In this document: piece after piece, positions 45,945-58,447 of the stretch
Position numbering within the stretch: position 1 is the first letter of the stretch
Layout: the number at the start of each line of letters is the position of its first letter
Assembly: GCA_947495975.1 (NCBI GenBank)
Contig: CANMBE010000009.1
Coordinates: forward strand, 14,560 to 78,559
From: Ignavibacteria bacterium
Lineage (GTDB): Bacteria > Bacteroidota > Ignavibacteria > Kapaibacteriales > Kapaibacteriaceae
Direction: 5' to 3'
Length of the DNA stretch: 64,000 nucleotides
The notes under the pieces: generated by a model
The model's database searches: none
The model's input: only the letters and a program-made list of their open reading frames with translations
What the model was told of the DNA's origin: nothing
Translations under genes and position numbers: made by a program

Positions 45945-48053
45945 CTAGAAAGCCATTGTCTCGCGAATGGTTCGTACCACGTCCCCAACATTGATGAGAG
46001 TTGCACTCTCAAGGCTTTTTGCGAACCCAACTGGGGTATCCTTTGACCCCAATCGCGCCACTGGAGCATCCAAAAATCTAAAGAGCTCCTCTCCTACGGC
46101 CGATGCCACCTCTCCACCAAAACCACCTGTCTTCTTATCCTCATGAACAACAACGCAGCGGCCAGTGGATTTAACTCTCTCAAACACGAGTTCCTTGTCC
46201 CACGGGGCTAATGAACGCAAATCAATGACCTCTACATCAATATTGTCGGCCTTGAGGATCTCGGCCGCCTGTAGACACAAATGCACTGGCGTGCCATATG
46301 TTACGACTGTTACGCTTGTGCCTGGCCTTCTAATCCTGGCCTTGCCGAAAGGAATAATGAAGTCCTCTGGTGGCATTGGAGTAGACGTAGGGCGGTAATT
46401 ATAGAGGAATTTTGGCTCGAGGAACATGGTGGTACCTCGAGACCTAATAGCATTACGCATTAATCCTACTGCATCGTCGGCAAATGACGGACAAACAACT
46501 CTCAATCCAGGGAGTGTCGTAAAAGTACCTTCTAGGTTCTGCGAGTGATACATGCCGCCTTGTATATACCCACCTGATGCAAGTCGAATGACAACTGCAG
46601 GTGCAAATTGTCCGCGTGTACGCCAATAATCATGGGTGCACTCAATGAGTTGCTCCATCGCCGGCCAGAAATAGTCGGCAAATTCAGCCCCCTCAACAAC
46701 AACTCGAATGTCATCCCGATATCGCGTCATGCCATTCGCAGTACCCACGATGTAGTCTTCAGCAATTGGAGCGTTGAACACTCTGTCATTGCCAAACTCA
46801 TCCAGCATTCCTTTGCAGACGTTGAAAATCCCCTGCTTTTTCTCAGATGCTACGTCCTGACCAAAAAGAAAGGTGTTGGGATTGCGACGGAATTCTTCCT
46901 TCATCGCATGTAAGATTCCCTCGCGAAAGGTCAATAATGGGGCGTCAGCAGCAGGCTTCCAACGTGCCTCGCTGCTATCTGTGTATCCAACAACGGGTTC
47001 AGGAAGCAAAAACTCTGAGTATGTTTCGCCCGCAGGTTCGGCAAGGAGCTCAACGGCATCTGCTGCCGCAAAAACGGCCTTCTTGTTTAGCTCTTCAATA
47101 GCCACCAACTCTTGTTCTGTAGTAATTCCGGCTGCCAAAAGTGTTGCACGCATGCGAGGAAGTGGATCGCGCGCTTTCATAGACTCAATGTCTTCCTTCG
47201 TCCGGTAGAGCTCATGGTTGTCAGAATTGGAATGCGAACCAATCCTATCACAATCGGCATGGACCATGGCAGGCCCCTTGCCACTTAACACGTATTCGCG
47301 AGCCAACACCATCGTGCGGTAGGAGTCCATCGGATCGCGCCCGTCACAGAGAAGAATCTTCAGGTTGGTAAAACCACGAAAGTTGTCGGAAACAACAGGG
47401 TTGGTTGTCTGCTCTCGAAGCGGTACCGATATGCCGTACTTGTTGTTCTGGATAACGAATATCAAGGGGAGCTTTTCGCGGTCGGCACCATTCACGGCTT
47501 CGTAATAGTAGCCTTCAGACGTGGTACTGTCGCCTGTAGAGCAATACACAACCTCATCGCCCTTGTATTTTTTGATCGACCGTGCGAGGCCGGCTGCCTG
47601 CTGGGAGTGATTGCCGGTGCACGACGACGAGTTTTGTAGACCGATAGAAATCTTGGCGAAGTGGTTGCTCATGTGACGTCCGCCACCAGCAACGTCTAGG
47701 TCCTTCGATAAACCGTTAGCGATGATTTCTTCTACAGTGAGACCCGCGGCGAGTGATGTGAGGAGATCGCGATAGTAGGGAAACAAGAAATCTTTTCCCG
47801 AGCGAAAGACTTTACCGAGGGCAAGCTGAATACCATCATGCCCTGCAAAAGGAGCGTGATAAGACCAGCCCTTAGCCATCTTTAGATAGTTGGCTGCCTT
47901 TTCGTCGAGGCGCCTTCCAAGATGCTGCGTTGTATACCAATCAAGCAATGTCAGCTTATCAAACCCACTCGTATCAAAAAGATCTTGCCTTGTCTTTACA
48001 CCCGTGACTGGCGTCTTCTTCATCTCCTTGGCCTTGGCCATGTTCGTCTCCAT
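45945..48053 (-). CDS. 2-oxoacid dehydrogenase E1, fused alpha+beta (probably branched-chain)
   Basis: TPP motif GDSTTSEG...QNNKYGIS, HSNSD, FGQDV, FNAPIAE, GGMYHSQ, FLEPKFLY, VVVHED. Confidence 0.9.
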   Translation of the reverse strand: METNMAKAKEMKKTPVTGVKTRQDLFDTSGFDKLTLLDWYTTQHLGRRLDEKAANYLKMAKGWSYHAPFAGHDGIQLALGKVFRSGKDFLFPYYRDLLTSLAAGLTVEEIIANGLSKDLDVAGGGRHMSNHFAKISIGLQNSSSCTGNHSQQAAGLARSIKKYKGDEVVYCSTGDSTTSEGYYYEAVNGADREKLPLIFVIQNNKYGISVPLREQTTNPVVSDNFRGFTNLKILLCDGRDPMDSYRTMVLAREYVLSGKGPAMVHADCDRIGSHSNSDNHELYRTKEDIESMKARDPLPRMRATLLAAGITTEQELVAIEELNKKAVFAAADAVELLAEPAGETYSEFLLPEPVVGYTDSSEARWKPAADAPLLTFREGILHAMKEEFRRNPNTFLFGQDVASEKKQGIFNVCKGMLDEFGNDRVFNAPIAEDYIVGTANGMTRYRDDIRVVVEGAEFADYFWPAMEQLIECTHDYWRTRGQFAPAVVIRLASGGYIQGGMYHSQNLEGTFTTLPGLRVVCPSFADDAVGLMRNAIRSRGTTMFLEPKFLYNYRPTSTPMPPEDFIIPFGKARIRRPGTSVTVVTYGTPVHLCLQAAEILKADNIDVEVIDLRSLAPWDKELVFERVKSTGRCVVVHEDKKTGGFGGEVASAVGEELFRFLDAPVARLGSKDTPVGFAKSLESATLINVGDVVRTIRETMAF

Positions 48054-48074: not shown

Positions 48075-49010
48075 TTATTTGGAACGGGTCTTCTTCACGG
48101 GCGTAAGCCATCCGTACGGGTCTTCGCCGTCTACGGTGATTTTATGGAAGGCCTGTTGCATCGCTCGCGTTATTGGACCAACCTTGCCTCTGCCCACGGC
48201 AATTCTGTCTACTGTTTTTACTGGCGTGATTTCTACCGCTGTCCCCGTCAAGAACATCTCGTCACACGTGTACAACATTGCCCGTGGGACGTCTTGTTCA
48301 CGCACGTTAATGCCCAACTCCTGCGCAAGCGTCATCACAGTATCGCGAGTAATACCTGGCAAGAGAGACGATGCTGCAGGAGGCGTGATAAGTTCATTGT
48401 CCAGTACAATAAACACATTCTCGCCTGAACCTTCCGTTACGTTGCCATAGGTGTCTAGGCAGATGCCTTCTGCATAACCGTTTTCAACGGCTTCCATTTT
48501 AACAAGCTGTGAATTCATGTAGTTGCCACCTGCCTTTGCCATTGATGGCAAAGCGTTTGGCGTGATGCGGTCCCACGAAGAGACGCATACATCAACACCA
48601 TTATCTGATGCATCATCACCCAGATAGGCGCCCCATTCCCATGCGGCAATGTAGACTTCAAGCGGACAGCGTAAACTGTAGACGCCCATATCCCCTAACC
48701 CACGCAGAGCAAATGGTCGGATATAGCAGCGGCCGAGTTTATTTCGTCGGACCAAATCAACTGCTGCCTCTGACAGCTCATCAACGCTAAATGGAAGCTT
48801 TGTGCGGTAGACTTTTAACGACATGTGAAGTCGGCGCATATGTTCTTGCAGTCGAAATATGGCTGGGCCATCTGGTGTGTCATAACACCGAATGCCCTCA
48901 AACCACGACGTGCCATAATGCACTACATGTGATAGAACGTGAATAGACGCTTTTTCAAACGGAACGAACGTCCCATTCTTCCAGATTGTGCGGGTTGGCG
49001 TAATCGGCAT
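48075..49010 (-). CDS. ilvE: Branched-chain amino acid aminotransferase
   Basis: VVHYGTSWFEGIRCY, YIRP, AKAGGNYMNS, EGSGENVF, LLPGITR, GTAVEITPV. Confidence 0.97.
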   Translation of the reverse strand: MPITPTRTIWKNGTFVPFEKASIHVLSHVVHYGTSWFEGIRCYDTPDGPAIFRLQEHMRRLHMSLKVYRTKLPFSVDELSEAAVDLVRRNKLGRCYIRPFALRGLGDMGVYSLRCPLEVYIAAWEWGAYLGDDASDNGVDVCVSSWDRITPNALPSMAKAGGNYMNSQLVKMEAVENGYAEGICLDTYGNVTEGSGENVFIVLDNELITPPAASSLLPGITRDTVMTLAQELGINVREQDVPRAMLYTCDEMFLTGTAVEITPVKTVDRIAVGRGKVGPITRAMQQAFHKITVDGEDPYGWLTPVKKTRSK

Positions 49011-50565: not shown

Positions 50566-51537
50566 TTAAAACTTCAAATGTGTGCGCACATCCAGATTCC
50601 CACCACAGACGATTATTCCAACACGTTTGCCTCTCACGAGCTGCGGATCATCAAGGAGAGCCCCAAGTGTAACCGAGGCGCTGGGCTCCACCACAATCTT
50701 TAGCCGCTCCATCATGTGATACAGTCCGTCGATGATTGATTTCTCCGTGGCCGTAACAATTCGAACCTGCGTGTGCTGCAACACTGCAAAAGGTAACTCA
50801 CCCAAGGCAGTACGTAGCCCATCGGCAATTGTCATCGTTGTGGGAGGGGGCTGACGAATTCCGGTATCCATTGAGCGTTTTGCGTCGTCAGCTACCTCTG
50901 GCTCAGCACCAATAATTGCTGCATTCGGACAAACAGCCCTCGTAACGATTGCCGTTCCGCTTAAGAGTCCGCCACCTCCAACTGGTGCCATTATCACATC
51001 CAAGTCTGGGAAATCTTCCAAGAGTTCTAGCGCGGCGGTTCCCTGACCGGCAATCACACGAGCATCATCGTATGGCGGAATTGCATGCGCCCCCGTTGTA
51101 TCAATTATCTGTTGCATCGTATGAAGACGCGACTGCAGGGTGGGTTCGCACAACACAATTGACGCACCGTATTCAAGTACAGCATCCCTTTTAACCTTGG
51201 GGGCATTTGATGGCATCACAATAGTGCATTGAATTCCACGAAGCCGAGCCGCATACGCTAATGCCTGTGCATGATTGCCTGATGAGTGAGTAACAACACC
51301 GCGCTCAGCAACTGCCTCATCCAGCATCATAACAGCATTGCAGGCGCCTCGCGCCTTAAATGCTCCAACCTTTTGAAAGTTCTCGCATTTGAAGAAGAGG
51401 TGAGCGCCGATGAGTTCATTCATCGACTGCGATGTAATGATTGGCGTTCGATGAATGAAGGAGCGAATGCGATCGGCTGCATCACGAACGTCGTTGATCG
51501 TTGGAAGATGAGACAACATCGCTGATTGCGCCATCAC
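50566..51537 (-). CDS. PLP-dependent serine/threonine dehydratase or serine racemase family protein
   Basis: [50 protein letters not shown]; no ACT domain. Confidence 0.88.
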
Positions 51538-53537
51538 ATGTTGCGGCGGTATTGTCCGCCCACTTCGTAAAGCGCATTCGTCATTTGACCAAGCGAACTC
51601 ACTTTTGCTGCTTCCATGAGAGCTTCAAAGATATTGTGGTTCTTTATGGCCGCTTGGCGTAGCGCTACCAAAGCATCATCTGTTTCTTTGCCACTTCGTG
51701 TTTGCACCGAATGAACATTTGTTATCTGCTGTTCTTTCTCATCTGTGGTGGACCGAATAACCTCTTTCGGGATTATTGTTGGCGAACCCTTAGAACTGAG
51801 AAATGTATTGACGCCGATAATCGGATATTCTCCGGTATGCTTCAACGTTTCATAGTACAGCGATTCTTCCTGAATCTTGTTCCGTTGGTACATGTTCTCC
51901 ATTGCACCGAGTACACCACCGCGTTCAGTGATTCGCTTAAACTCTGTGTAGACTGCCTCTTCTACAAGGTCTGTTAACTCTTCGATGATGAAAGCCCCCT
52001 GAATAGGGTTTTCATTCTTCGTTAATCCGAGTTCTCTGTTAATGATGAGTTGTATTGCAATTGCACGACGAACACTGTCTTCGGTTGGCGTTGTAATGGC
52101 CTCATCATATGCGTTCGTATGCAACGAATTGCAATTGTCATAGATGGCGTACAAAGCTTGTAGTGATGTTCGAATGTCATTGAAGTCGATCTCCTGCGCA
52201 TGCAAAGACCTGCCCGATGTTTGAATATGATACTTCAACATCTGCGAGCGTTCATTGCCACCATACATTTGCTTCATTGCTTTTGCCCAAATCTTTCTCG
52301 CTACTCGGCCGATAACGCTGTACTCAGGATCAACACCATTCGAAAAGAAGAATGAGAGGTTTGGCGCAAAGTCATCGATGTTCATACCTCGAGAGAGGTA
52401 GTACTCCACATATGTAAAACCATTTGAAAGCGTAAAAGCTAATTGCGTAATTGGGTTGGCACCTGCTTCAGCAATGTGATAACCGGATATTGACACAGAG
52501 TAAAAATTTCGAATACCTTCGTTGATGAAGTATTCCTGCACATCACCCATCATTCGCAGTGCAAACTCTGTTGAGAAAATGCACGTGTTCTGTGCCTGGT
52601 CTTCTTTGAGAATATCGGCCTGAACCGTACCTCGTACGTTCTGCAATGCTCGCTGCCTGCATTCAGCATATACATCCGGTGGCAAAACCTTATCACCAGT
52701 AACACCAAGAAGTAATAGGCCTAATCCCTTGTTTCCATCAGGCAGGTCAACAGAACCATCGCCGTGTTTATAGAGTGGACGAAGAAGCCCCTTAGCCGAA
52801 TACATCTCGCTGATTTTCTTTTCTATCTCTGGTTCAAGCGAACGTTCGCGAATCACCTTTTCGCATTCTTGATCAATAGCAGCGTTCATAAAAAACGCCA
52901 AAATCATCGGAGCCGGTCCATTAATCGTCATTGAAACCGATGTGGTAGGAGAGCACAGATCAAAGCCAGAATAGAGTTTTTTTGCATCATCGAGCGAAGC
53001 AATACTTACACCTGCATTTCCGATCTTTCCATAGATATCGGGCCGGTGATCTGGATCTTCACCATACAGCGTAACGCTATCGAATGCAGTAGATAGTCTA
53101 GCTGCCGGCATCCCCTTGGATAGATAATGAAATCGCTTGTTTGTTCGCTCTGGTCCACCTTCGCCTGCAAACATCCGTGTAGGATCTTCATTCATTCGCT
53201 TAAATGGGTACACGCCGGCAGTGAATGGAAACTCACCTGGCACGTTTTCTTGCATGCACCACCGAACAATTTCGCCCCAGTCTTTGAATTGAGGCAAGGA
53301 TATTTTTGACACGCGGGTGTGGCTGAGAGATTCACTGTAGTTGTCAACACGAATTTCCTTACCACGAACACTATATGTAAAGTGTTCGCCTTGGTACGAT
53401 GCCTTTTTCTTCTCCCACGAAGAAAGCATTGATCGAACGTCACTATGCAGTTGCGACTCAAGCTCAGCTGCGCGAAGCTCAAGAATGTTGATTGCTTCCT
53501 GCACGGGAACAGATACAGTTGTTGTTTTTGTACTCAT
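51534..53537 (-). CDS. icmF: IcmF C-terminal half: isobutyryl-CoA mutase substrate-binding TIM barrel plus part of the linker
   Basis: [26 protein letters not shown] (Phe at the MCM Tyr site), [23 protein letters not shown] (Gln at the MCM Arg site), [10 protein letters not shown], terminal GGQYRRNM. Confidence 0.93.
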
Positions 53538-54869
53538 CTAATTATGCGTTACTGTGTAGAGCTTAGCTGAGGCTGATAACCCACCTATCCAAAGAGTAAT
53601 AATCTTCCCAGCTTTTAAGACAATGGTTGTTGGACCAATAACAACCTGGTTCGTGCCTGCTTTCTTGAAGACGATGGTATAGGTGCTTGGCACGCGACTA
53701 AAGAATGCACTCGTGAATGTGTCACTGTAGCTGGCTTTGCGGAACGAAAGGTCTTGACACTCATCAATTTTTAGGTCACCAGTAGGAGTTACAACGTATC
53801 CATCAAGGTTGGGTGCATCCGCAGAAAGATGGACCACACGCACGGATGTCTCATTTGGCACAAGGGGCTTCTTTAGGTCAACGAGTTCCAGCAACACCAC
53901 GTTTGGTGGAAAGAGTCGGCCCGAACCAAAAAGTGTTTTGAGGCCACGTTGTGCTACCAAAAATGTAGCGTCCGTAATAACTGGAGACCCAGATGCCAAA
54001 ACTGTGGCTGTGTGTTGTCCTGGCGCAAGATCGATGTACGGACTCTGATTTGAAAACGCAAGGTTGTTAATGGACGCCGTTGCAGAACCATCAAGATTCA
54101 CCGATATTGGGCCCGCGCCAGGTACGGCATGCACGACCTGAATACTTCCTCGGTCGGTTGAAACACGTAGATCCTGATATGTAGAGCCGCCTACGTTGTT
54201 GTTATAGAGTCTGGCAATAACACCCCAAGAATCGGCATCGGTAAGAGTGCCCATCAATGCTAACGTATACGACGTGTTTTGATCGAGACGCACACTGTCA
54301 TAGGCAATTTCAAAAGTTGAATTGCCCAACTGCAACACAGAGAATGGATACGTACCAGCATCGATGTCAGAATAATCAGATACCACAGTGTAGCGCAAGG
54401 GACCCAAGAGAAGTGAGTCATCTGTGTACGCCAAGGAAAGCTGACCACCATCTGAAATGCCATTAACAAGATTTATACATGCCTTTCCTGCCATTGGCCG
54501 CCGTACATCATCGTCAAAAGAAAAGGAGAATGTTTTAATCGGAGGGAATGCATACGCCGTAAAACTGCCTCCGGTATACATCCGTTGCACTGAACTAACT
54601 TGAGCCGAATCTTTGCCGGCAAAGTGAATCCCCACTTTAATTACATCGCCACTCACCCCAGCGAGCACATAGCCGCTACTCTTACCAGATTTGACACCGC
54701 TCGTTACTTTCCTATCAACAACGGATAGATCTAATCCGATTGTATCATCATGAGCGATATTCAAGAGTCTAATAAACGTAGTCTCAGTTGGCGGCTTGGT
54801 GCCGTCATCATTAGAACATCCAACGATTAACGCAATGGCCAAGATTGCAACCAATGTGATTTTACTCAT
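53538..54869 (-). CDS. DUF4397-domain lipoprotein
   Basis: Lipobox IVGC; repeated IRLLNIAHD / INLVNG / VVHAVPGAG / VRVVHLSADAPNLD motifs. Confidence 0.8.
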   Translation of the reverse strand: MSKITLVAILAIALIVGCSNDDGTKPPTETTFIRLLNIAHDDTIGLDLSVVDRKVTSGVKSGKSSGYVLAGVSGDVIKVGIHFAGKDSAQVSSVQRMYTGGSFTAYAFPPIKTFSFSFDDDVRRPMAGKACINLVNGISDGGQLSLAYTDDSLLLGPLRYTVVSDYSDIDAGTYPFSVLQLGNSTFEIAYDSVRLDQNTSYTLALMGTLTDADSWGVIARLYNNNVGGSTYQDLRVSTDRGSIQVVHAVPGAGPISVNLDGSATASINNLAFSNQSPYIDLAPGQHTATVLASGSPVITDATFLVAQRGLKTLFGSGRLFPPNVVLLELVDLKKPLVPNETSVRVVHLSADAPNLDGYVVTPTGDLKIDECQDLSFRKASYSDTFTSAFFSRVPSTYTIVFKKAGTNQVVIGPTTIVLKAGKIITLWIGGLSASAKLYTVTHN

Positions 54870-54904
54870 GATTCCCTATGTACCATTTGTTCAATGTTGA
54901 TGTG

Positions 54905-56314
54905 TCATTTAATATGTGTGCCTGACAGTTCGTCTATTGCACCTCGTACTCTCCATAACGCGCGTGCTAGTTGTGACTGTTGCACAACGTGCGCATCGTA
55001 CCGTCGGTTGTTTTCTACGATCTCCGCTAGGTAGCGCGTGCGCTCCGGAGGGATAATGAAGATTTTTTCGCTCATCTCATCGGTAATCTCATAGTTCGAT
55101 TTCCATGGTAATTCGCATCGAGCGATGAGCAGATCGTTGAGAGCCCTGTACAATGTGTTGGTGCCCGGGTCATTAAACTGAGATGCAATTGTTCCATAAA
55201 CTGGCATCTCTTCAATCTTGGTATCAAAGAGCAAGCGACTTCGTTGAAACTGCTTGCTTACGTCGCGCAGCGCATCAAGAGCACCGCGCTTATCAAACTT
55301 GTTGAGGGCAATAATGTCAGCATAGTCAATCATGTCGATCTTCTCAAGCTGCGACGCAGCGCCGTACTCAGGCGTCATTACATACATCGATACATCTGCA
55401 ACATCCGTTATCTGTGAATCGCTCTGGCCGATTCCAGCAGTTTCAACGATGATGAGATCATAACGTGCGTACGAGAGGATTTGAATTGCATCTAGCACGT
55501 GAGGGTTGATAGCAATGTTTGCTTCTCGCGTGGCAAATGAGCGCATGTACACACGTGAATCGCTCACTGCATTCATTCGAATCCGATCGCCCAAGAGTGC
55601 GCCGCCCGTCTTTCTCTTTGACGGATCTACACTTACCACAGCAATTGTTTTGTCAGGATGATCTAGTAAGAATCTTCTAACAATCTCATCAGTCAACGAC
55701 GATTTTCCTGCGCCGCCCGTACCTGTTATACCTAGGACTGGTGACTTCTTTGCATCAATCGCAAACGCAACAAGATTACTGTCTCCGCGTTCAGCACTCG
55801 AGATTGCCTGTGCAATTGCTAACGGATCCTTTTCAAATACACGCGTGCTTAGCTCTGAAGCATGGACGAGCGGCGTTACAAAGTCGCTCTTTTGCACAAG
55901 GTCATTGATCATTCCTTGAAGCCCCATTGCACGGCCATCATCTGGGGAGTACACTCGAGTGATGCCTGCGGCATGCAACGTGTCGATCTCCGTTGGAAGG
56001 ATTGTACCGCCACCGCCCGCAAAGATTTTAATGTGGCCGGCGCCTCTCTCAACAAGTAGACGTTTCATGTAAGTGAGGTACTCTACATGTCCTCCCTGGT
56101 ATGACGTCATAGCAATTGATTGGACGTCTTCTTGAATAGCGCACTCAACAACCTCTTTAACAGACCGGTTGTGTCCTAGGTGAATTACCTCGCACCCTGT
56201 AGCCTGGATAATCCTACGCATCACGTTAATGGCAGCGTCATGGCCATCAAACAATGAAGCCGCGGTGACAATACGAACCTTATGTTGCGGAACGTAGGGT
56301 GTTGGAGATTGCAT
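54905..56314 (-). CDS. icmF: IcmF N-terminal half: cobalamin-binding domain plus MeaB/MeaI GTPase (469 aa; start moved to 56314)
   Basis: [77 protein letters not shown]. Confidence 0.93.
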
Positions 56315-56346
56315 AGACCAGTCCATTAACAATGAGGACAACGTAG

Positions 56347-56354
56347 CAAAACTA
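56347..56354 (-). promoter_or_regulatory. -7 element TAGTTTTG upstream of icmF-N
   Basis: Exact TAnnTTTG; lies inside the ORF-track N-terminal extension, which supports the downstream ATG 56314. Confidence 0.5.
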
Positions 56355-56433
56355 CGCATCACACGTACGTGTTTTACGTTGACGTTTGACTTACACCCCT
56401 TTCCATGAACTTCTACCTAGTAAATTCTGCACA

Positions 56434-57825
56434 TTGAACACAGAGCTCATCATGTTAGGGGGCGCCGAAGAGGTTGGTGCAAACAGTTGTTACCTCAATA
56501 TTGACGGGACGGGCATTATTGTTGATGCCGGGATTCATCCGCGTGATCGGACAGAAAAGGCCTTCCCTGCAGTAGACATGATAGGTGACCGCGAGACGGA
56601 CGTTTTGTTGATAACACACGCTCATGCAGATCATCTTGGGGGATTGCCCTACGTTATGAGGCGTTTTCCGCATTTGCGACCAATAATGACGCATGCCACG
56701 CGAGACTTGAGCCACATTACACTTCATAATGGTGCCCGACTACTACGGTCGGATATTGCAGACCATGTTCCCCGGGAATGGTTAGAGTTCTACAATCGAG
56801 ATGCAATCGAGCTATTGCGGTACGCCTTTGAGGCAATACGCTATGATGAGCCCCTTACCTTTCGCGGGTATCGAGGTCGGTCAGATGTGACGGCCAAATT
56901 TCATTGGGCAGGCCACATACTTGGCTCTGCAGGAATCGGACTGTCTTGCAAGGGTCTCAACATTATGCACACGGGGGATGTTCAGTTTGAACACCAAACT
57001 GTGATACCTAAGGCCACATTTCCACGGCATCATGTTGACGTGCTCATAACGGAAGCAACGAACGGATCCGAAGACTCTATGCCATCGATAGGCGAGGAAT
57101 CAAAACGGTTGGCAGCGTTCATTAATTCAATTAGTGAAAGAAACGGCTCAATACTGATTCCATGTTTTGCACTTGGTAAAATGCAAGAGATGCTAGTCCT
57201 GCTCTATAGTATGATGCGCAGAGGCTCCATACCAAACCTGCCCATCCATACTGGGGGGATGGGAATACGCATCAGCAAGATCTACGATCAATATTGTTAC
57301 AGCGACCCGATGCGGCGTCCAGGCTTTGAGGTCTCAGACGTTGCACAAGAATCAATTCAGCGGGGGGAACTGCACAACGGTGCGTATCTCAAGACGCCTT
57401 CAATTGTCCTTGCTTCGTCCGGAATGTTGAACACTGGAACGATCTCCTATAACCTTGCTCTTCAGTGGATGACACGACCAAAATTTGGCATTGCCTTTAT
57501 TGGGTACCAACATCCAAGTACGCCTGGTTATCAGCTTTTGCATTCTACGATGAAAACACCGTTCGATCTCGCAAGTTTACGTGCAACTCGTTCTTGCGAG
57601 ATCGGCCGATTTCGATTCAGTGCTCATTCTTCGAGAGAAGGACTTGTGTCTTTTGCACAAGATGTGAGCCCTTCCACAGTTGTAATCATGCATGGCGAAC
57701 CTGATGCATGTGACGACCTTGCACTCGAGATACGCGATCGTCTACCAGGTGCACGCATTATCGTACCACGCCTAGGCACGGTCTACAACATAGGCAAGGA
57801 ACAAGATCACATTAGTGTTGAATGA
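56434..57825 (+). CDS. Beta-CASP metallo-beta-lactamase-fold ribonuclease (start probably TTG 56434)
   Basis: LGGAEEVGANS, THAHADHLG, AGHILGS, HTGD, ITEAT, LIPCFALGKMQE, FSAH. Confidence 0.88.
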   Translation: MNTELIMLGGAEEVGANSCYLNIDGTGIIVDAGIHPRDRTEKAFPAVDMIGDRETDVLLITHAHADHLGGLPYVMRRFPHLRPIMTHATRDLSHITLHNGARLLRSDIADHVPREWLEFYNRDAIELLRYAFEAIRYDEPLTFRGYRGRSDVTAKFHWAGHILGSAGIGLSCKGLNIMHTGDVQFEHQTVIPKATFPRHHVDVLITEATNGSEDSMPSIGEESKRLAAFINSISERNGSILIPCFALGKMQEMLVLLYSMMRRGSIPNLPIHTGGMGIRISKIYDQYCYSDPMRRPGFEVSDVAQESIQRGELHNGAYLKTPSIVLASSGMLNTGTISYNLALQWMTRPKFGIAFIGYQHPSTPGYQLLHSTMKTPFDLASLRATRSCEIGRFRFSAHSSREGLVSFAQDVSPSTVVIMHGEPDACDDLALEIRDRLPGARIIVPRLGTVYNIGKEQDHISVE

Positions 57826-58447
57826 GCGTTGGGCGAGTGCACTTCTGTCCATCTGCTCCACTCACAATGATTGTATACATGCCAGTTGGAATGTCTCGGA
57901 CATCAATCTCTAGTGTTGTTGAGGCCGGATGTATTGTATGCGACCGAATGAGTAGTCCGCGTACATCTCGGATTTCAATCATTGATGCACCTTTCAACGT
58001 CCAACTCGCAGTGATTCCGTTAGACGCCGGCAATGGATACACTGAAAGATGACCTTGTTCTGAGATTTCGTTGCTTACAGTGTTTACCAATTGGTATGGT
58101 GCATTCATCTGAATAAAGGCATGACTCAGAATTGCAACTTTAGGTCTTATGGTGCTGCGGATCACGAACCTGTATTTTGATCCCATTGGCTGATCAAATG
58201 GTATCGTCCACACAAATCGTCTAAGCGAAGTAAGGATGTTTGATGCTATCACTGTGGTTGTAGAGCGTTCTCCGTCCCAGAGTTCTAGTGTTGCACGCTC
58301 CGATGCGAGTGCCTCGTCCCAGGTGATTGTAACGGTCTTTCCTGGAGCAAGAGGAACCTCAGTTGCCCCTCCAGAAGGCCAGATGTGTGCAGAACTGCTC
58401 GCAACAAGTATGAATGTTGAGCAGATGAAGAAAATCGTTTTCATCAT
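57812..58447 (-). CDS. Small T9SS cargo (211 aa), one Ig-like domain plus CTD
   Basis: Signal peptide; LAPGKTVTITWD...LELWDG...FVWTIP...YRFVI; CTD VYPLPAS...DVRGLLI...GMYTIIV. Confidence 0.7.
   Translation of the reverse strand: MMKTIFFICSTFILVASSSAHIWPSGGATEVPLAPGKTVTITWDEALASERATLELWDGERSTTTVIASNILTSLRRFVWTIPFDQPMGSKYRFVIRSTIRPKVAILSHAFIQMNAPYQLVNTVSNEISEQGHLSVYPLPASNGITASWTLKGASMIEIRDVRGLLIRSHTIHPASTTLEIDVRDIPTGMYTIIVSGADGQKCTRPTLIQH

What the first reader, a model, noticed from the sequence alone, without database searches (positions are those of the whole stretch)
51534..56314. IcmF split into two intact genes with a DUF4397 lipoprotein gene inserted at the linker
Seen: the N-half (469 aa; B12 domain + MeaI GTPase) ends ...[15 protein letters not shown]. 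The C-half (667 aa) begins [26 protein letters not shown]... with its ATG immediately after the DUF4397 stop (TAG|ATG). Together they make 1136 aa, about one full IcmF, and all catalytic motifs look intact ([28 protein letters not shown]). Established: IcmF is normally one polypeptide, and stand-alone ICM systems are organised as IcmA + IcmB + MeaI. Inference: a natural fission at the variable linker gives an (IcmB-MeaI) + (linker-IcmA) heterodimer. This is an unusual arrangement and is informative for how the G-protein chaperone engages the mutase.
Basis: partly seen in the sequence, partly recalled or inferred. Interest (0 to 1): 0.7.

Follow-up and report, generated by a model that had tools for sequence, protein, structure and literature searches.

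The report
Naturally split IcmF B12 mutase
A freshwater Kapabacteria-type bacterium encodes the normally single-chain B12 enzyme IcmF as two intact, conserved genes separated by an unrelated surface-lipoprotein gene. The split is normal for this lineage and unreported in the papers searched, and the lipoprotein looks like a passenger.

Summary
On the minus strand lie icmF-N (56314-54905, 469 aa: B12 domain plus MeaI G-protein), a DUF4397 lipoprotein gene (54869-53538) and icmF-C (53537-51534, 667 aa: rest of linker plus mutase barrel), with a TAG|ATG junction.

- **Not an artefact or decay.** Contigs from four metagenome studies span both junctions without indels. Both halves are under strong purifying selection.
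- **Where it breaks.** The break follows a predicted 41-residue helix, in a linker segment whose length varies among fused homologues.
- **Not rare.** About 58 species-level genomes carry a split IcmF: 22 with DUF4397 between the halves, 2 syntenic relatives with adjacent halves and no DUF4397 (secondary loss), about 31 with unlinked halves, and 3 Bacteroidia MAGs with an independent fission.
- **Direction of change.** Split forms nest among fused ones, so fission is derived and recurrent.
- **DUF4397.** It is exported, fast-evolving and dispensable, so it is most likely a passenger.

The inferred product is a non-covalent complex in which the chaperone stays fused only to the B12 domain. No paper I could search describes this. 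It is a new variant of a known kind, of moderate interest.

The parts
54905..56314 (-). icmF-N, 469 aa: cobalamin-binding Rossmann domain (about residues 10-145), MeaI-type G-protein domain (about 150-400), and the first long linker helix (predicted 426-466).
   Evidence: Pfam PF02310 plus PF03308. NF045497 positions 1-466. About 60% identical to 4XC6 chain residues 43-507. AF2 model pLDDT 76, best fold match IcmF with TMq 0.78. pN 0.085-0.20 against saturated pS.
54870..54904 (-). 35-nt spacer between the icmF-N stop (TGA) and the DUF4397 start.
   Evidence: Sequence read directly. One metatranscriptome contig covers 54700-54915 across it (weak). No terminator signal above shuffle expectation.
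53538..54869 (-). DUF4397 lipoprotein gene, 443 aa: signal peptide with lipobox LIVGC (Cys18) and four DUF4397 repeats. Exported and fast-evolving; a likely passenger.
   Evidence: PF14344 at 127.5 bits, 4 stretches. Cys18 invariant in 6 orthologues. 24-62% identity among orthologues against 70-88% for the IcmF halves. Absent from syntenic relatives L172 and L173.
51534..53537 (-). icmF-C, 667 aa: about 95-residue linker remnant followed by the substrate-binding TIM barrel. The ATG abuts the DUF4397 stop (TAG|ATG).
   Evidence: PF01642. NF045497 matched to position 1076, 1089 bits. Aligns to 4XC6 chain 514-734 and 734-1113. RMFAGEG and DQAQNT conserved. pN 0.09-0.16 against saturated pS.
52677..52820 (-). 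About 48-residue insertion in icmF-C (residues 240-287) relative to C. metallidurans IcmF.
   Evidence: Gap between the two aligned stretches. Bacteroidota fused forms align across it without a break.

Best explanation
The window carries a functional, naturally split isobutyryl-CoA mutase. An ancestral fused icmF was broken in a length-variable loop of the inter-domain linker, directly after a long helix.

- Gene 1 (icmF-N) makes the cobalamin-binding domain still covalently fused to its MeaI G-protein chaperone.
- Gene 2 (icmF-C) makes the rest of the linker plus the substrate-binding barrel.

Inferred mechanism. The two products associate non-covalently, probably as (N.C)2, to rebuild the IcmF active site at the interface between the Cbl domain and the barrel. 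GTP-dependent opening and closing for AdoCbl loading and unloading then works as in IcmF, but without a covalent tether between chaperone and barrel.

The gene between them encodes an exported four-repeat DUF4397 lipoprotein. It sits in one subclade (the 'trio' clade) and is most likely a passenger gene in the operon rather than part of the enzyme system.

The locus lies upstream of gatB and of branched-chain amino-acid catabolic genes (class IV aminotransferase, fused 2-oxoacid dehydrogenase E1). This fits IcmF's role in isobutyryl-CoA and isovaleryl-CoA metabolism.

Shown: gene structure, homology, conservation, selection, distribution, derived status of the split. Inferred: complex formation, stoichiometry, activity, passenger status of DUF4397.
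For: Anatomy and homology:
- Searches give the ORFs, domains and alignment to IcmF.
- The two halves together cover the whole IcmF model. The combined length of 1136 aa falls inside the 1119-1179 aa range of fused relatives.
- Between two conserved anchor motifs, N tail plus C head is 136 residues, against 117-150 in 61 fused homologues.

Break position:
- It falls at the same alignment column in 7 split forms, inside a segment that varies by about 0-35 residues in fused Bacteroidota.
- It comes 3 residues after a predicted 41-residue helix.
- The 76 N-half residues after the MeaB-profile match equal the 76 profile positions left, so N ends where a stand-alone MeaB would end.

Selection:
- Both halves show pN 0.085-0.20 against pS 0.70-0.89.
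- Omega is 0.025-0.07 wherever dS could be estimated.

Breadth:
- The best 120 homologue clusters of N (100% down to 69% identity) are all 414-498 aa.
- About 58 species-level genomes carry a split form.

The halves work in trans:
- They lie 1.46 Mb apart on one contig (BPHJ01: L184 and L118).
- They lie on different contigs in JBMSYN01 and JAFLBY01.
- They lie on opposite strands in L085.

Derived and recurrent:
- Split forms nest among fused ones.
- The Bacteroidia split clade is monophyletic in 100% of bootstraps and never joins the Kapabacteria-type split (0 of 200).

DUF4397 is dispensable:
- L172 and L173 keep the order beta-CASP | N | C | PALP | GatB | BCAT with N and C 12-13 nt apart.
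- They nest inside the trio clade with 95-100% support.

Other:
- The assembly is verified.
- Published structures treat Cbl plus G-protein (residues 22-442) and linker plus substrate domain (443-1093) as two rigid bodies, and show the G-domain contacting the Cbl domain directly (PMC10481361, PMC9974510).
Against: - No biochemical evidence exists that the halves bind each other or are active.
- Transcription evidence is thin. It consists of short metatranscriptome contigs from related strains, which could include DNA carry-over.
- The DUF4397 gene holds its position in 22 species with tight spacing to icmF-C (0-10 nt in most). That could mean more than hitch-hiking.
- The trees are neighbour-joining on corrected p-distances. 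Deep branching within the Kapabacteria-type group is unresolved: monophyly of all its split forms has only 5% support once Leptospira and one fused 'Kapaibacterium' sequence are added. The number of fission events there, and the order of fission versus insertion, are not settled.
Confidence: 0.8

Rival explanations
1. DUF4397 is a functional partner of the split enzyme. It could be a surface protein involved in corrinoid or cobalt capture, or a gene whose translation is needed to drive translation of icmF-C. On this reading, its insertion into the linker created the split.
For: - Conserved N-DUF4397-C order in 22 species-level genomes.
- TAG|ATG abutment in the window and 5-10 nt spacers in most orthologues.
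- One orthologue carries an N-terminal HMA metal-binding domain.
- The colinear N-x-C order is what an insertional fission would leave behind.
Against: - It is an exported lipoprotein with an invariant lipobox Cys, whereas IcmF is cytoplasmic.
- It evolves far faster than the halves: 24-62% identity, omega about 0.3-0.4.
- It is absent from syntenic L172 and L173, which are still split.
- It is absent from about 31 unlinked-split genomes and from the independent Bacteroidia split.
- No cobalamin riboswitch is present in the window.
- There is no informative structural or family link to known B12-binding proteins. The only hit is a marginal one to the PepT2 extracellular Ig-like domain.
Confidence: 0.15
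2. The two-gene form is an ancestral, pre-fusion intermediate (IcmB-MeaI plus IcmA) and not a fission of a fused icmF.
For: - Stand-alone ICM systems with separate subunits exist (established knowledge).
- Deep branching inside the Kapabacteria-type group is poorly resolved.
Against: - Split forms nest among fused IcmFs of Bacteroidota, Leptospira and other phyla.
- The C-half keeps an about 95-residue N-terminal region homologous to the fused linker. The N tail plus C head reconstitute a linker of normal length.
- The split forms share an about 48-residue insertion with the fused forms of Bacteroidota.
Confidence: 0.04
3. The split is an artefact or a decaying gene: a misassembly, a sequencing frameshift, or pseudogenisation after an insertion.
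For: Some fragmentary or frameshifted IcmF-like entries exist in metagenome protein sets.
Against: - Independent contigs from four studies span both junctions without indels.
- The same arrangement recurs in many diverged genomes with intact ORFs.
- Both halves are under strong purifying selection.
- All catalytic motifs are intact.
Confidence: 0.01
4. The halves are rejoined into one chain, either by split-intein protein splicing or by translational bypass of the middle gene.
For: None beyond the colinear gene order.
Against: - N aligns to IcmF to within 3 residues of its C-terminus and C from about residue 19. That leaves no room for intein halves.
- In other genomes the halves are on opposite strands or megabases apart.
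- A 1.3-kb intact ORF with its own signal peptide lies between them.
Confidence: 0.01

Closest known systems
IcmF (fused isobutyryl-CoA mutase/GTPase; C. metallidurans, PDB 4XC6; NCBIfam NF045497)
   Same: - Same domains in the same order, about 55-60% identity over the whole length.
- Conserved Cbl His motif, P-loop, switch III residues and the RMFAGEG and DQxQNT substrate-site motifs.
- The N-half model superposes on IcmF with TMq 0.78.
   Different: - Two polypeptides instead of one. The break is at C. metallidurans chain residue about 507-514 (native about 487-494), inside the linker.
- Each half scores below the family's 1500-bit naming cut-off (654 and 1089 bits), so automated annotation does not call either one IcmF.
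Stand-alone ICM of Streptomyces (IcmA large subunit, IcmB small subunit, separate MeaI chaperone)
   Same: - The substrate barrel and the Cbl-binding domain are on separate chains that must assemble.
- Same predicted chemistry.
   Different: - Here the chaperone is covalently fused to the small (Cbl) subunit and is not free.
- The large subunit carries an about 95-residue remnant of the IcmF linker.
- The sequences are IcmF-type, nested among fused IcmFs.
The crystallised MeaB:MCM-Cbl-domain 'minimal system' (PDB 8DPB; PMC9974510)
   Same: It pairs a G-protein chaperone with only the Cbl-binding domain of its mutase. The icmF-N protein is a natural, covalent version of that pair.
   Different: That system is an engineered construct of a methylmalonyl-CoA mutase with a dimeric free MeaB. 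This one is a natural gene product of the ICM branch.
Other split acyl-CoA mutases (2-hydroxyisobutyryl-CoA mutase HcmA/HcmB, PDB 4R3U; archaeal split MCM)
   Same: Large-subunit plus small-subunit architecture. The C-half matches HcmA at E = 1.9e-77 and the N-half B12 domain matches HcmB.
   Different: To my knowledge, those systems keep the G-protein as a separate protein, and they are not derived from a fused ancestor.

Membership tests
IcmF (fused isobutyryl-CoA mutase/GTPase, NF045497) | A single polypeptide carrying the Cbl domain, G-protein, linker and substrate barrel. | tested here: not met
   Two ORFs separated by a 1.3-kb gene. Confirmed in independent assemblies.
IcmF (fused isobutyryl-CoA mutase/GTPase, NF045497) | End-to-end homology to the IcmF profile above the curated cut-off of 1500 bits. 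| tested here: inconclusive
   N covers model positions 1-466 (654 bits). C extends to position 1076 (1089 bits). Each is below the cut-off alone, and together they span the model.
IcmF (fused isobutyryl-CoA mutase/GTPase, NF045497) | Base-off/His-on cobalamin motif and a MeaB-type GTPase P-loop with switch III residues. | tested here: met
   FDGHDAAIN aligns with [18 protein letters not shown] is identical. GAASQLEK (Q341 and K344 equivalents) is identical to 4XC6. The role of the switch III residues is from PMC10481361.
IcmF (fused isobutyryl-CoA mutase/GTPase, NF045497) | ICM-type substrate-site residues: Phe in RMFAGEG and Gln in DQxQNT. The residue roles are recalled from Jost et al. 2015, which could not be read here. 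| tested here: met
   Both residues are conserved in the alignment to 4XC6. Their assignment as specificity determinants rests on memory, so it is a lead and not a test.
IcmF (fused isobutyryl-CoA mutase/GTPase, NF045497) | AdoCbl-dependent isobutyryl-CoA/n-butyryl-CoA mutase activity and GTPase activity. | not testable with these tools
   Needs expression and assay.
Stand-alone ICM (IcmA + IcmB + MeaI) | A small Cbl-binding subunit and the G-protein chaperone as separate proteins. | tested here: not met
   The B12-binding and MeaB domains are in one 469-aa ORF.
Stand-alone ICM (IcmA + IcmB + MeaI) | The large substrate-binding subunit as a separate protein. | tested here: met
   The 667-aa icmF-C ORF with MM_CoA_mutase.
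DUF4397 (PF14344) lipoproteins | DUF4397 repeat domains above the Pfam gathering score. | tested here: met
   127.5 bits against a 30.6-bit cut-off, four stretches.
DUF4397 (PF14344) lipoproteins | Export as a lipoprotein: signal peptide plus lipobox Cys. | tested here: met
   MSKITLVAILAIALIVGC. The Cys is invariant in six orthologues. No dedicated signal-peptide predictor was available.

The most novel reading that the evidence does not exclude
The split is adaptive. The Cbl-domain-G-protein protein may act as a dissociable 'cofactor cartridge'. It would leave the barrel subunit to be reloaded or repaired at the adenosyltransferase and then rebind, replacing the in-place domain opening of fused IcmF. 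Recurrent fission at the same loop in two lineages would then reflect selection for subunit exchange.

A weaker variant of this reading is that the DUF4397 lipoprotein is functionally tied to corrinoid or metal supply for the enzyme.
Probability: 0.15. Interest if true: 0.7.

Novelty: new variant of a known kind. Interest (0 to 1): 0.45.

Why it matters
- **A natural test of the tether.** IcmF is the model for how a G-protein metallochaperone loads and unloads coenzyme B12 on its mutase. The field has asked openly what benefit the fusion brings (PMC9974510). A whole lineage keeps the chaperone fused to the B12 domain but has cut the tether to the catalytic barrel, and an independent lineage cut it at the same loop. 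This suggests which covalent link may matter. It also supplies ready-made two-piece proteins for binding, GTPase, cofactor-transfer and structural studies.
- **An annotation gap.** Neither half reaches the curated IcmF cut-off. Where database names are recorded, these genes are labelled 'cobalamin B12-binding domain-containing protein', 'methylmalonyl-CoA mutase', 'isobutyryl-CoA mutase' or 'hypothetical protein'. Branched-chain acyl-CoA isomerisation may therefore be missed in metabolic reconstructions of Kapabacteria-type freshwater bacteria.

Tried and rejected
Steps that gave nothing usable:
- **Homologue search for DUF4397.** The same search for the C-half timed out. No deep alignment of DUF4397 could therefore be built.
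- **AF2 of DUF4397.** The single-sequence model was useless (pLDDT 34.5), so no fold search was run on it.
- **DUF4397 profile against PDB sequences.** Only a marginal hit to the PepT2 extracellular domain, E = 0.002.
- **DUF4397 against genome contigs by exact peptides.** Nothing found.
- **Representative-library search with the N-half.** The 50%-identity clusters mix split and fused forms. Many short representatives are truncated or frameshifted fragments. It could not be used to count independent splits.
- **Rfam on the whole window.** No cobalamin riboswitch or any other family.
- **Promoter and terminator scan.** Nothing above shuffle expectation.
- **Repeats and paralogues.** No repeats flank the DUF4397 gene and no paralogue lies in the window. 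There is no compositional anomaly. No trace of a mobile element or target-site duplication was found.
- **Literature.** Cracan 2010 and both Jost 2015 papers are not held. Searches for a described split IcmF found nothing.

Readings rejected: misassembly, pseudogene, intein or bypass rejoining, and a pre-fusion ancestral state (see rivals).

One early result was withdrawn. The first tree gave 100% support for monophyly of all split forms. That did not survive wider sampling (5%), so I do not claim a single fission in Kapabacteria.
Full report
**Observation.** The minus strand of the window carries three consecutive ORFs.
- icmF-N is 56314-54905 and 469 aa from the ATG. An upstream GTG would give 485 aa, but orthologues begin at the equivalent MQSP/MTNP position.
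- A 443-aa ORF lies at 54869-53538.
- icmF-C is 53537-51534 and 667 aa.

The middle ORF's TAG is immediately followed by the ATG of icmF-C. A 35-nt spacer separates the TGA of icmF-N from the middle ORF's ATG.

Pfam finds B12-binding plus MeaB in the first protein, four DUF4397 repeats in the second, and MM_CoA_mutase in the third. The NCBIfam model for fused IcmF (NF045497, 1076 positions) matches the first protein over positions 1-466 and the third through to position 1076. The scores are 654 and 1089 bits, and each is below the 1500-bit naming cut-off.

Against C. metallidurans IcmF (4XC6), N residues 9-466 align with chain residues 43-507. C residues 19-239 and 288-667 align with chain residues 514-734 and 734-1113. 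Only a handful of residues are unaccounted for at the break. The PDB chain carries 20 extra N-terminal residues, so the break is at about native residue 487-494.

These motifs align with their IcmF counterparts:
- the cobalamin motif (FDGHDAAIN)
- the P-loop (GTGGAGKSS)
- the switch III residues (GAASQLEK)
- RMFAGEG
- DQAQNT

**Not an artefact, not decay.** Logan contigs from four lake or freshwater metagenome runs belonging to four different studies cover 51300-56500. Single contigs span both junctions, with only base substitutions and no indels or joints.

I compared six genomes that share the three-gene arrangement (N-half identity 70-87%). Non-synonymous differences per site are 0.085-0.20 for both halves, while synonymous sites are saturated at 0.70-0.89. 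Wherever dS could be estimated, omega is 0.025-0.07.

The DUF4397 gene is intact in all six but only 24-62% identical, with omega about 0.3-0.4. Its lipobox cysteine is invariant.

**Where the break lies.** In an alignment of seven split forms with nine fused Bacteroidota IcmFs, every split form is broken at the same place. That place is a segment whose length varies by roughly 0-35 residues among the fused proteins.

Between two conserved anchor motifs, the window's N tail plus C head add up to 136 residues. This is inside the 117-150 range of 61 fused homologues.

An AlphaFold model of the N-half (35-sequence alignment, pLDDT 76, pTM 0.78) ends in a 41-residue helix (426-466), three residues before the stop. 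Its best structural matches are the IcmF entries (TMq 0.78), then MeaB, then the small B12 subunits.

The stand-alone MeaB profile NF006958 matches N residues 177-393 over profile positions 43-257 of 333. That leaves 76 positions in the profile and 76 residues in the protein. The N-half therefore ends about where a free MeaB would end.

Published cryo-EM work treats residues 22-442 (Cbl plus G-protein) and 443-1093 (linker plus substrate domain) as two rigid bodies (PMC10481361). The natural break falls about 45 residues into the second body.

**Distribution.** The best 120 homologue clusters of the N-half, from 100% down to 69% identity, are all 414-498 aa long. The few named ones are called Kapabacteria or Ignavibacteria. 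Gene-context look-ups showed the N-DUF4397-C trio with conserved flanks (beta-CASP hydrolase upstream; PALP enzyme, GatB and class IV aminotransferase downstream) in relatives down to 69% identity. One genome has the halves on opposite strands about 4 kb apart and no DUF4397.

I ran two surveys of species-representative genomes. One was seeded with the C-half linker and one with the N-half tail.

| Arrangement | Species-level assemblies | Examples and notes |
|---|---|---|
| N-DUF4397-C trio | 22 | The window belongs to this group |
| N and C adjacent, no DUF4397, Kapabacteria-type | 2 | L172, L173; stop, 12-13 nt, ATG |
| N and C adjacent, Bacteroidia MAGs | 3 | L191, L192, L197; spacers 5-223 nt |
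| Halves unlinked | about 31 | See below |

For three of the unlinked assemblies both halves were recovered. In BPHJ01 they lie 1.46 Mb apart on one contig (L184 and L118). In JBMSYN01 and JAFLBY01 they lie on different contigs. The unlinked C-halves sit in at least six different neighbourhoods.

Fused IcmF is the rule in Bacteroidota, Leptospira, Calditrichia, Myxococcota, Acidobacteriota and others.

**Direction and number of events.** All trees are neighbour-joining on corrected p-distances.
- Split forms nest among fused forms.
- The three Bacteroidia split genes form a clade in 100% of bootstraps. That clade sits inside fused Bacteroidota and never joins the Kapabacteria-type split forms (0 of 200). 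This is an independent fission at the same loop.
- The trio genomes plus L172 form a clade with 99% support. L172 is nested within it at 95-100% support.
- L172 and L173 keep exactly the window's gene order except for the missing DUF4397. The lipoprotein gene was therefore lost there secondarily, and the enzyme stayed split.

Deeper relationships are unresolved. Kapabacteria-type split forms, Leptospira fused forms and one fused 'Kapaibacterium' sequence together form a clade with 99% support. Monophyly of the split forms within that clade has only 5% support. I cannot say how many fissions occurred in that group. I also cannot say whether the DUF4397 insertion created the split in the trio clade or landed between two already separate genes. 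The Bacteroidia case shows that no insertion is needed for a fission here.

**What the middle gene is.** It encodes a signal peptide with a lipobox followed by four DUF4397 repeats. No NCBIfam family matches the window's protein. A profile of six orthologues finds only a marginal match (E = 0.002) to the extracellular immunoglobulin-like domain of PepT2.

I could not obtain a usable structure model or a homologue search. There is no cobalamin riboswitch in the window. No flanking repeats, compositional anomaly or paralogue was found.

I rate the gene as a passenger, at about 0.7-0.8, for four reasons:
- it is exported
- it evolves fast
- it is restricted to one subclade
- it is dispensable in close relatives

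**Expression.** Short metatranscriptome contigs from related strains lie on all three genes. One crosses the N-stop/DUF4397-start spacer (54700-54915) and one crosses the DUF4397-stop/C-start junction (53379-53554). This is compatible with co-transcription but weak, because the contigs are short and DNA carry-over is possible. The consensus scans gave no promoter or terminator signal above shuffle expectation.

**Mechanism.** The sequence and comparative facts above are shown. What follows is inferred.

In IcmF the active site forms between the Cbl domain and the barrel. The G-domain wraps around and contacts the Cbl domain. G-domain pairing between dimers props the mutase open for cofactor exchange (PMC9974510, PMC10481361).

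The split keeps the Cbl-G unit intact and frees it from the barrel. I therefore expect a non-covalent (N.C)2 enzyme that works like IcmF. It would be organised like an alpha2beta2 ICM whose small subunit carries its own chaperone.

The downstream aminotransferase (48075-49010) and fused 2-oxoacid dehydrogenase E1 (45945-48053) fit a role in branched-chain acyl-CoA metabolism.

**Comparison and novelty.** The system is IcmF by sequence but fails the family's defining single-chain feature. It is not a stand-alone ICM either, because the chaperone is fused to the small subunit. Its N-half is a natural covalent counterpart of the engineered MeaB:Cbl-domain complex (8DPB).

I found no paper describing it, although the key subscription papers could not be read. 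It is a new variant of a known kind.

It is widespread, recurrent and unannotated. It bears on the stated open question of what the IcmF fusion is for. Even so, gene fission at a flexible linker is not surprising in principle. Interest 0.45.

Noticed in passing
L191:3747-6694, L192:3747-5571, L197:3747-7148: Three Bacteroidia MAGs carry an independently split IcmF. N and C are adjacent with spacers of 5-223 nt and no inserted gene. The break is at the same linker loop. They form a clade in 100% of bootstraps inside fused Bacteroidota.
   Followed up: yes
L083:8392-9897: In one orthologous locus, the DUF4397 ORF is extended in frame at its N-terminus by a CopZ-like HMA domain (MxCxxC) ahead of the signal peptide and lipobox. 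This is either a real fusion or an upstream small gene with no intervening stop.
   Followed up: partly
window:52677-52820: icmF-C has an insertion of about 48 residues (residues 240-287) relative to C. metallidurans IcmF, at chain position 734. Fused Bacteroidota homologues share it. Its role is unknown.
   Followed up: partly
L108, L109, L113, L136, L154, L219: Fused IcmFs of Leptospira cluster with the Kapabacteria-type sequences (99% for the joint clade, tested with L219) and not with other phyla. This hints at horizontal transfer or a shared deep origin.
   Followed up: partly
L091, L093, L104, L121, L175, L181: Contigs carrying the Kapabacteria-type trio are labelled Patescibacteria, Didemnitutus, Hyphomicrobiales or Melioribacter in their records. 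These are probably mis-binned or mislabelled MAGs.
   Followed up: no
window:45945-51537: Downstream on the same strand: a PALP enzyme (its ORF as listed from a GTG overlaps the icmF-C stop by 4 nt), gatB, a class IV (branched-chain-type) aminotransferase, and a single-chain fusion of 2-oxoacid dehydrogenase E1 alpha and beta. This is a plausible branched-chain amino-acid catabolic neighbourhood.
   Followed up: partly
window:37847-45001: A 2384-aa ORF on the minus strand. Not examined.
   Followed up: no
window:57812-62717: A run of minus-strand genes for secreted proteins. One has a T9SS C-terminal sorting domain (57812-58447). A 1094-aa ORF has no Pfam hit. The gene order is conserved in relatives.
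   Followed up: no
window:52446-52533: In two metagenome runs, the assembly graph breaks into pairs of short alternative contigs here. This indicates strain-level single-base variation inside icmF-C. No indels were seen.
   Followed up: no
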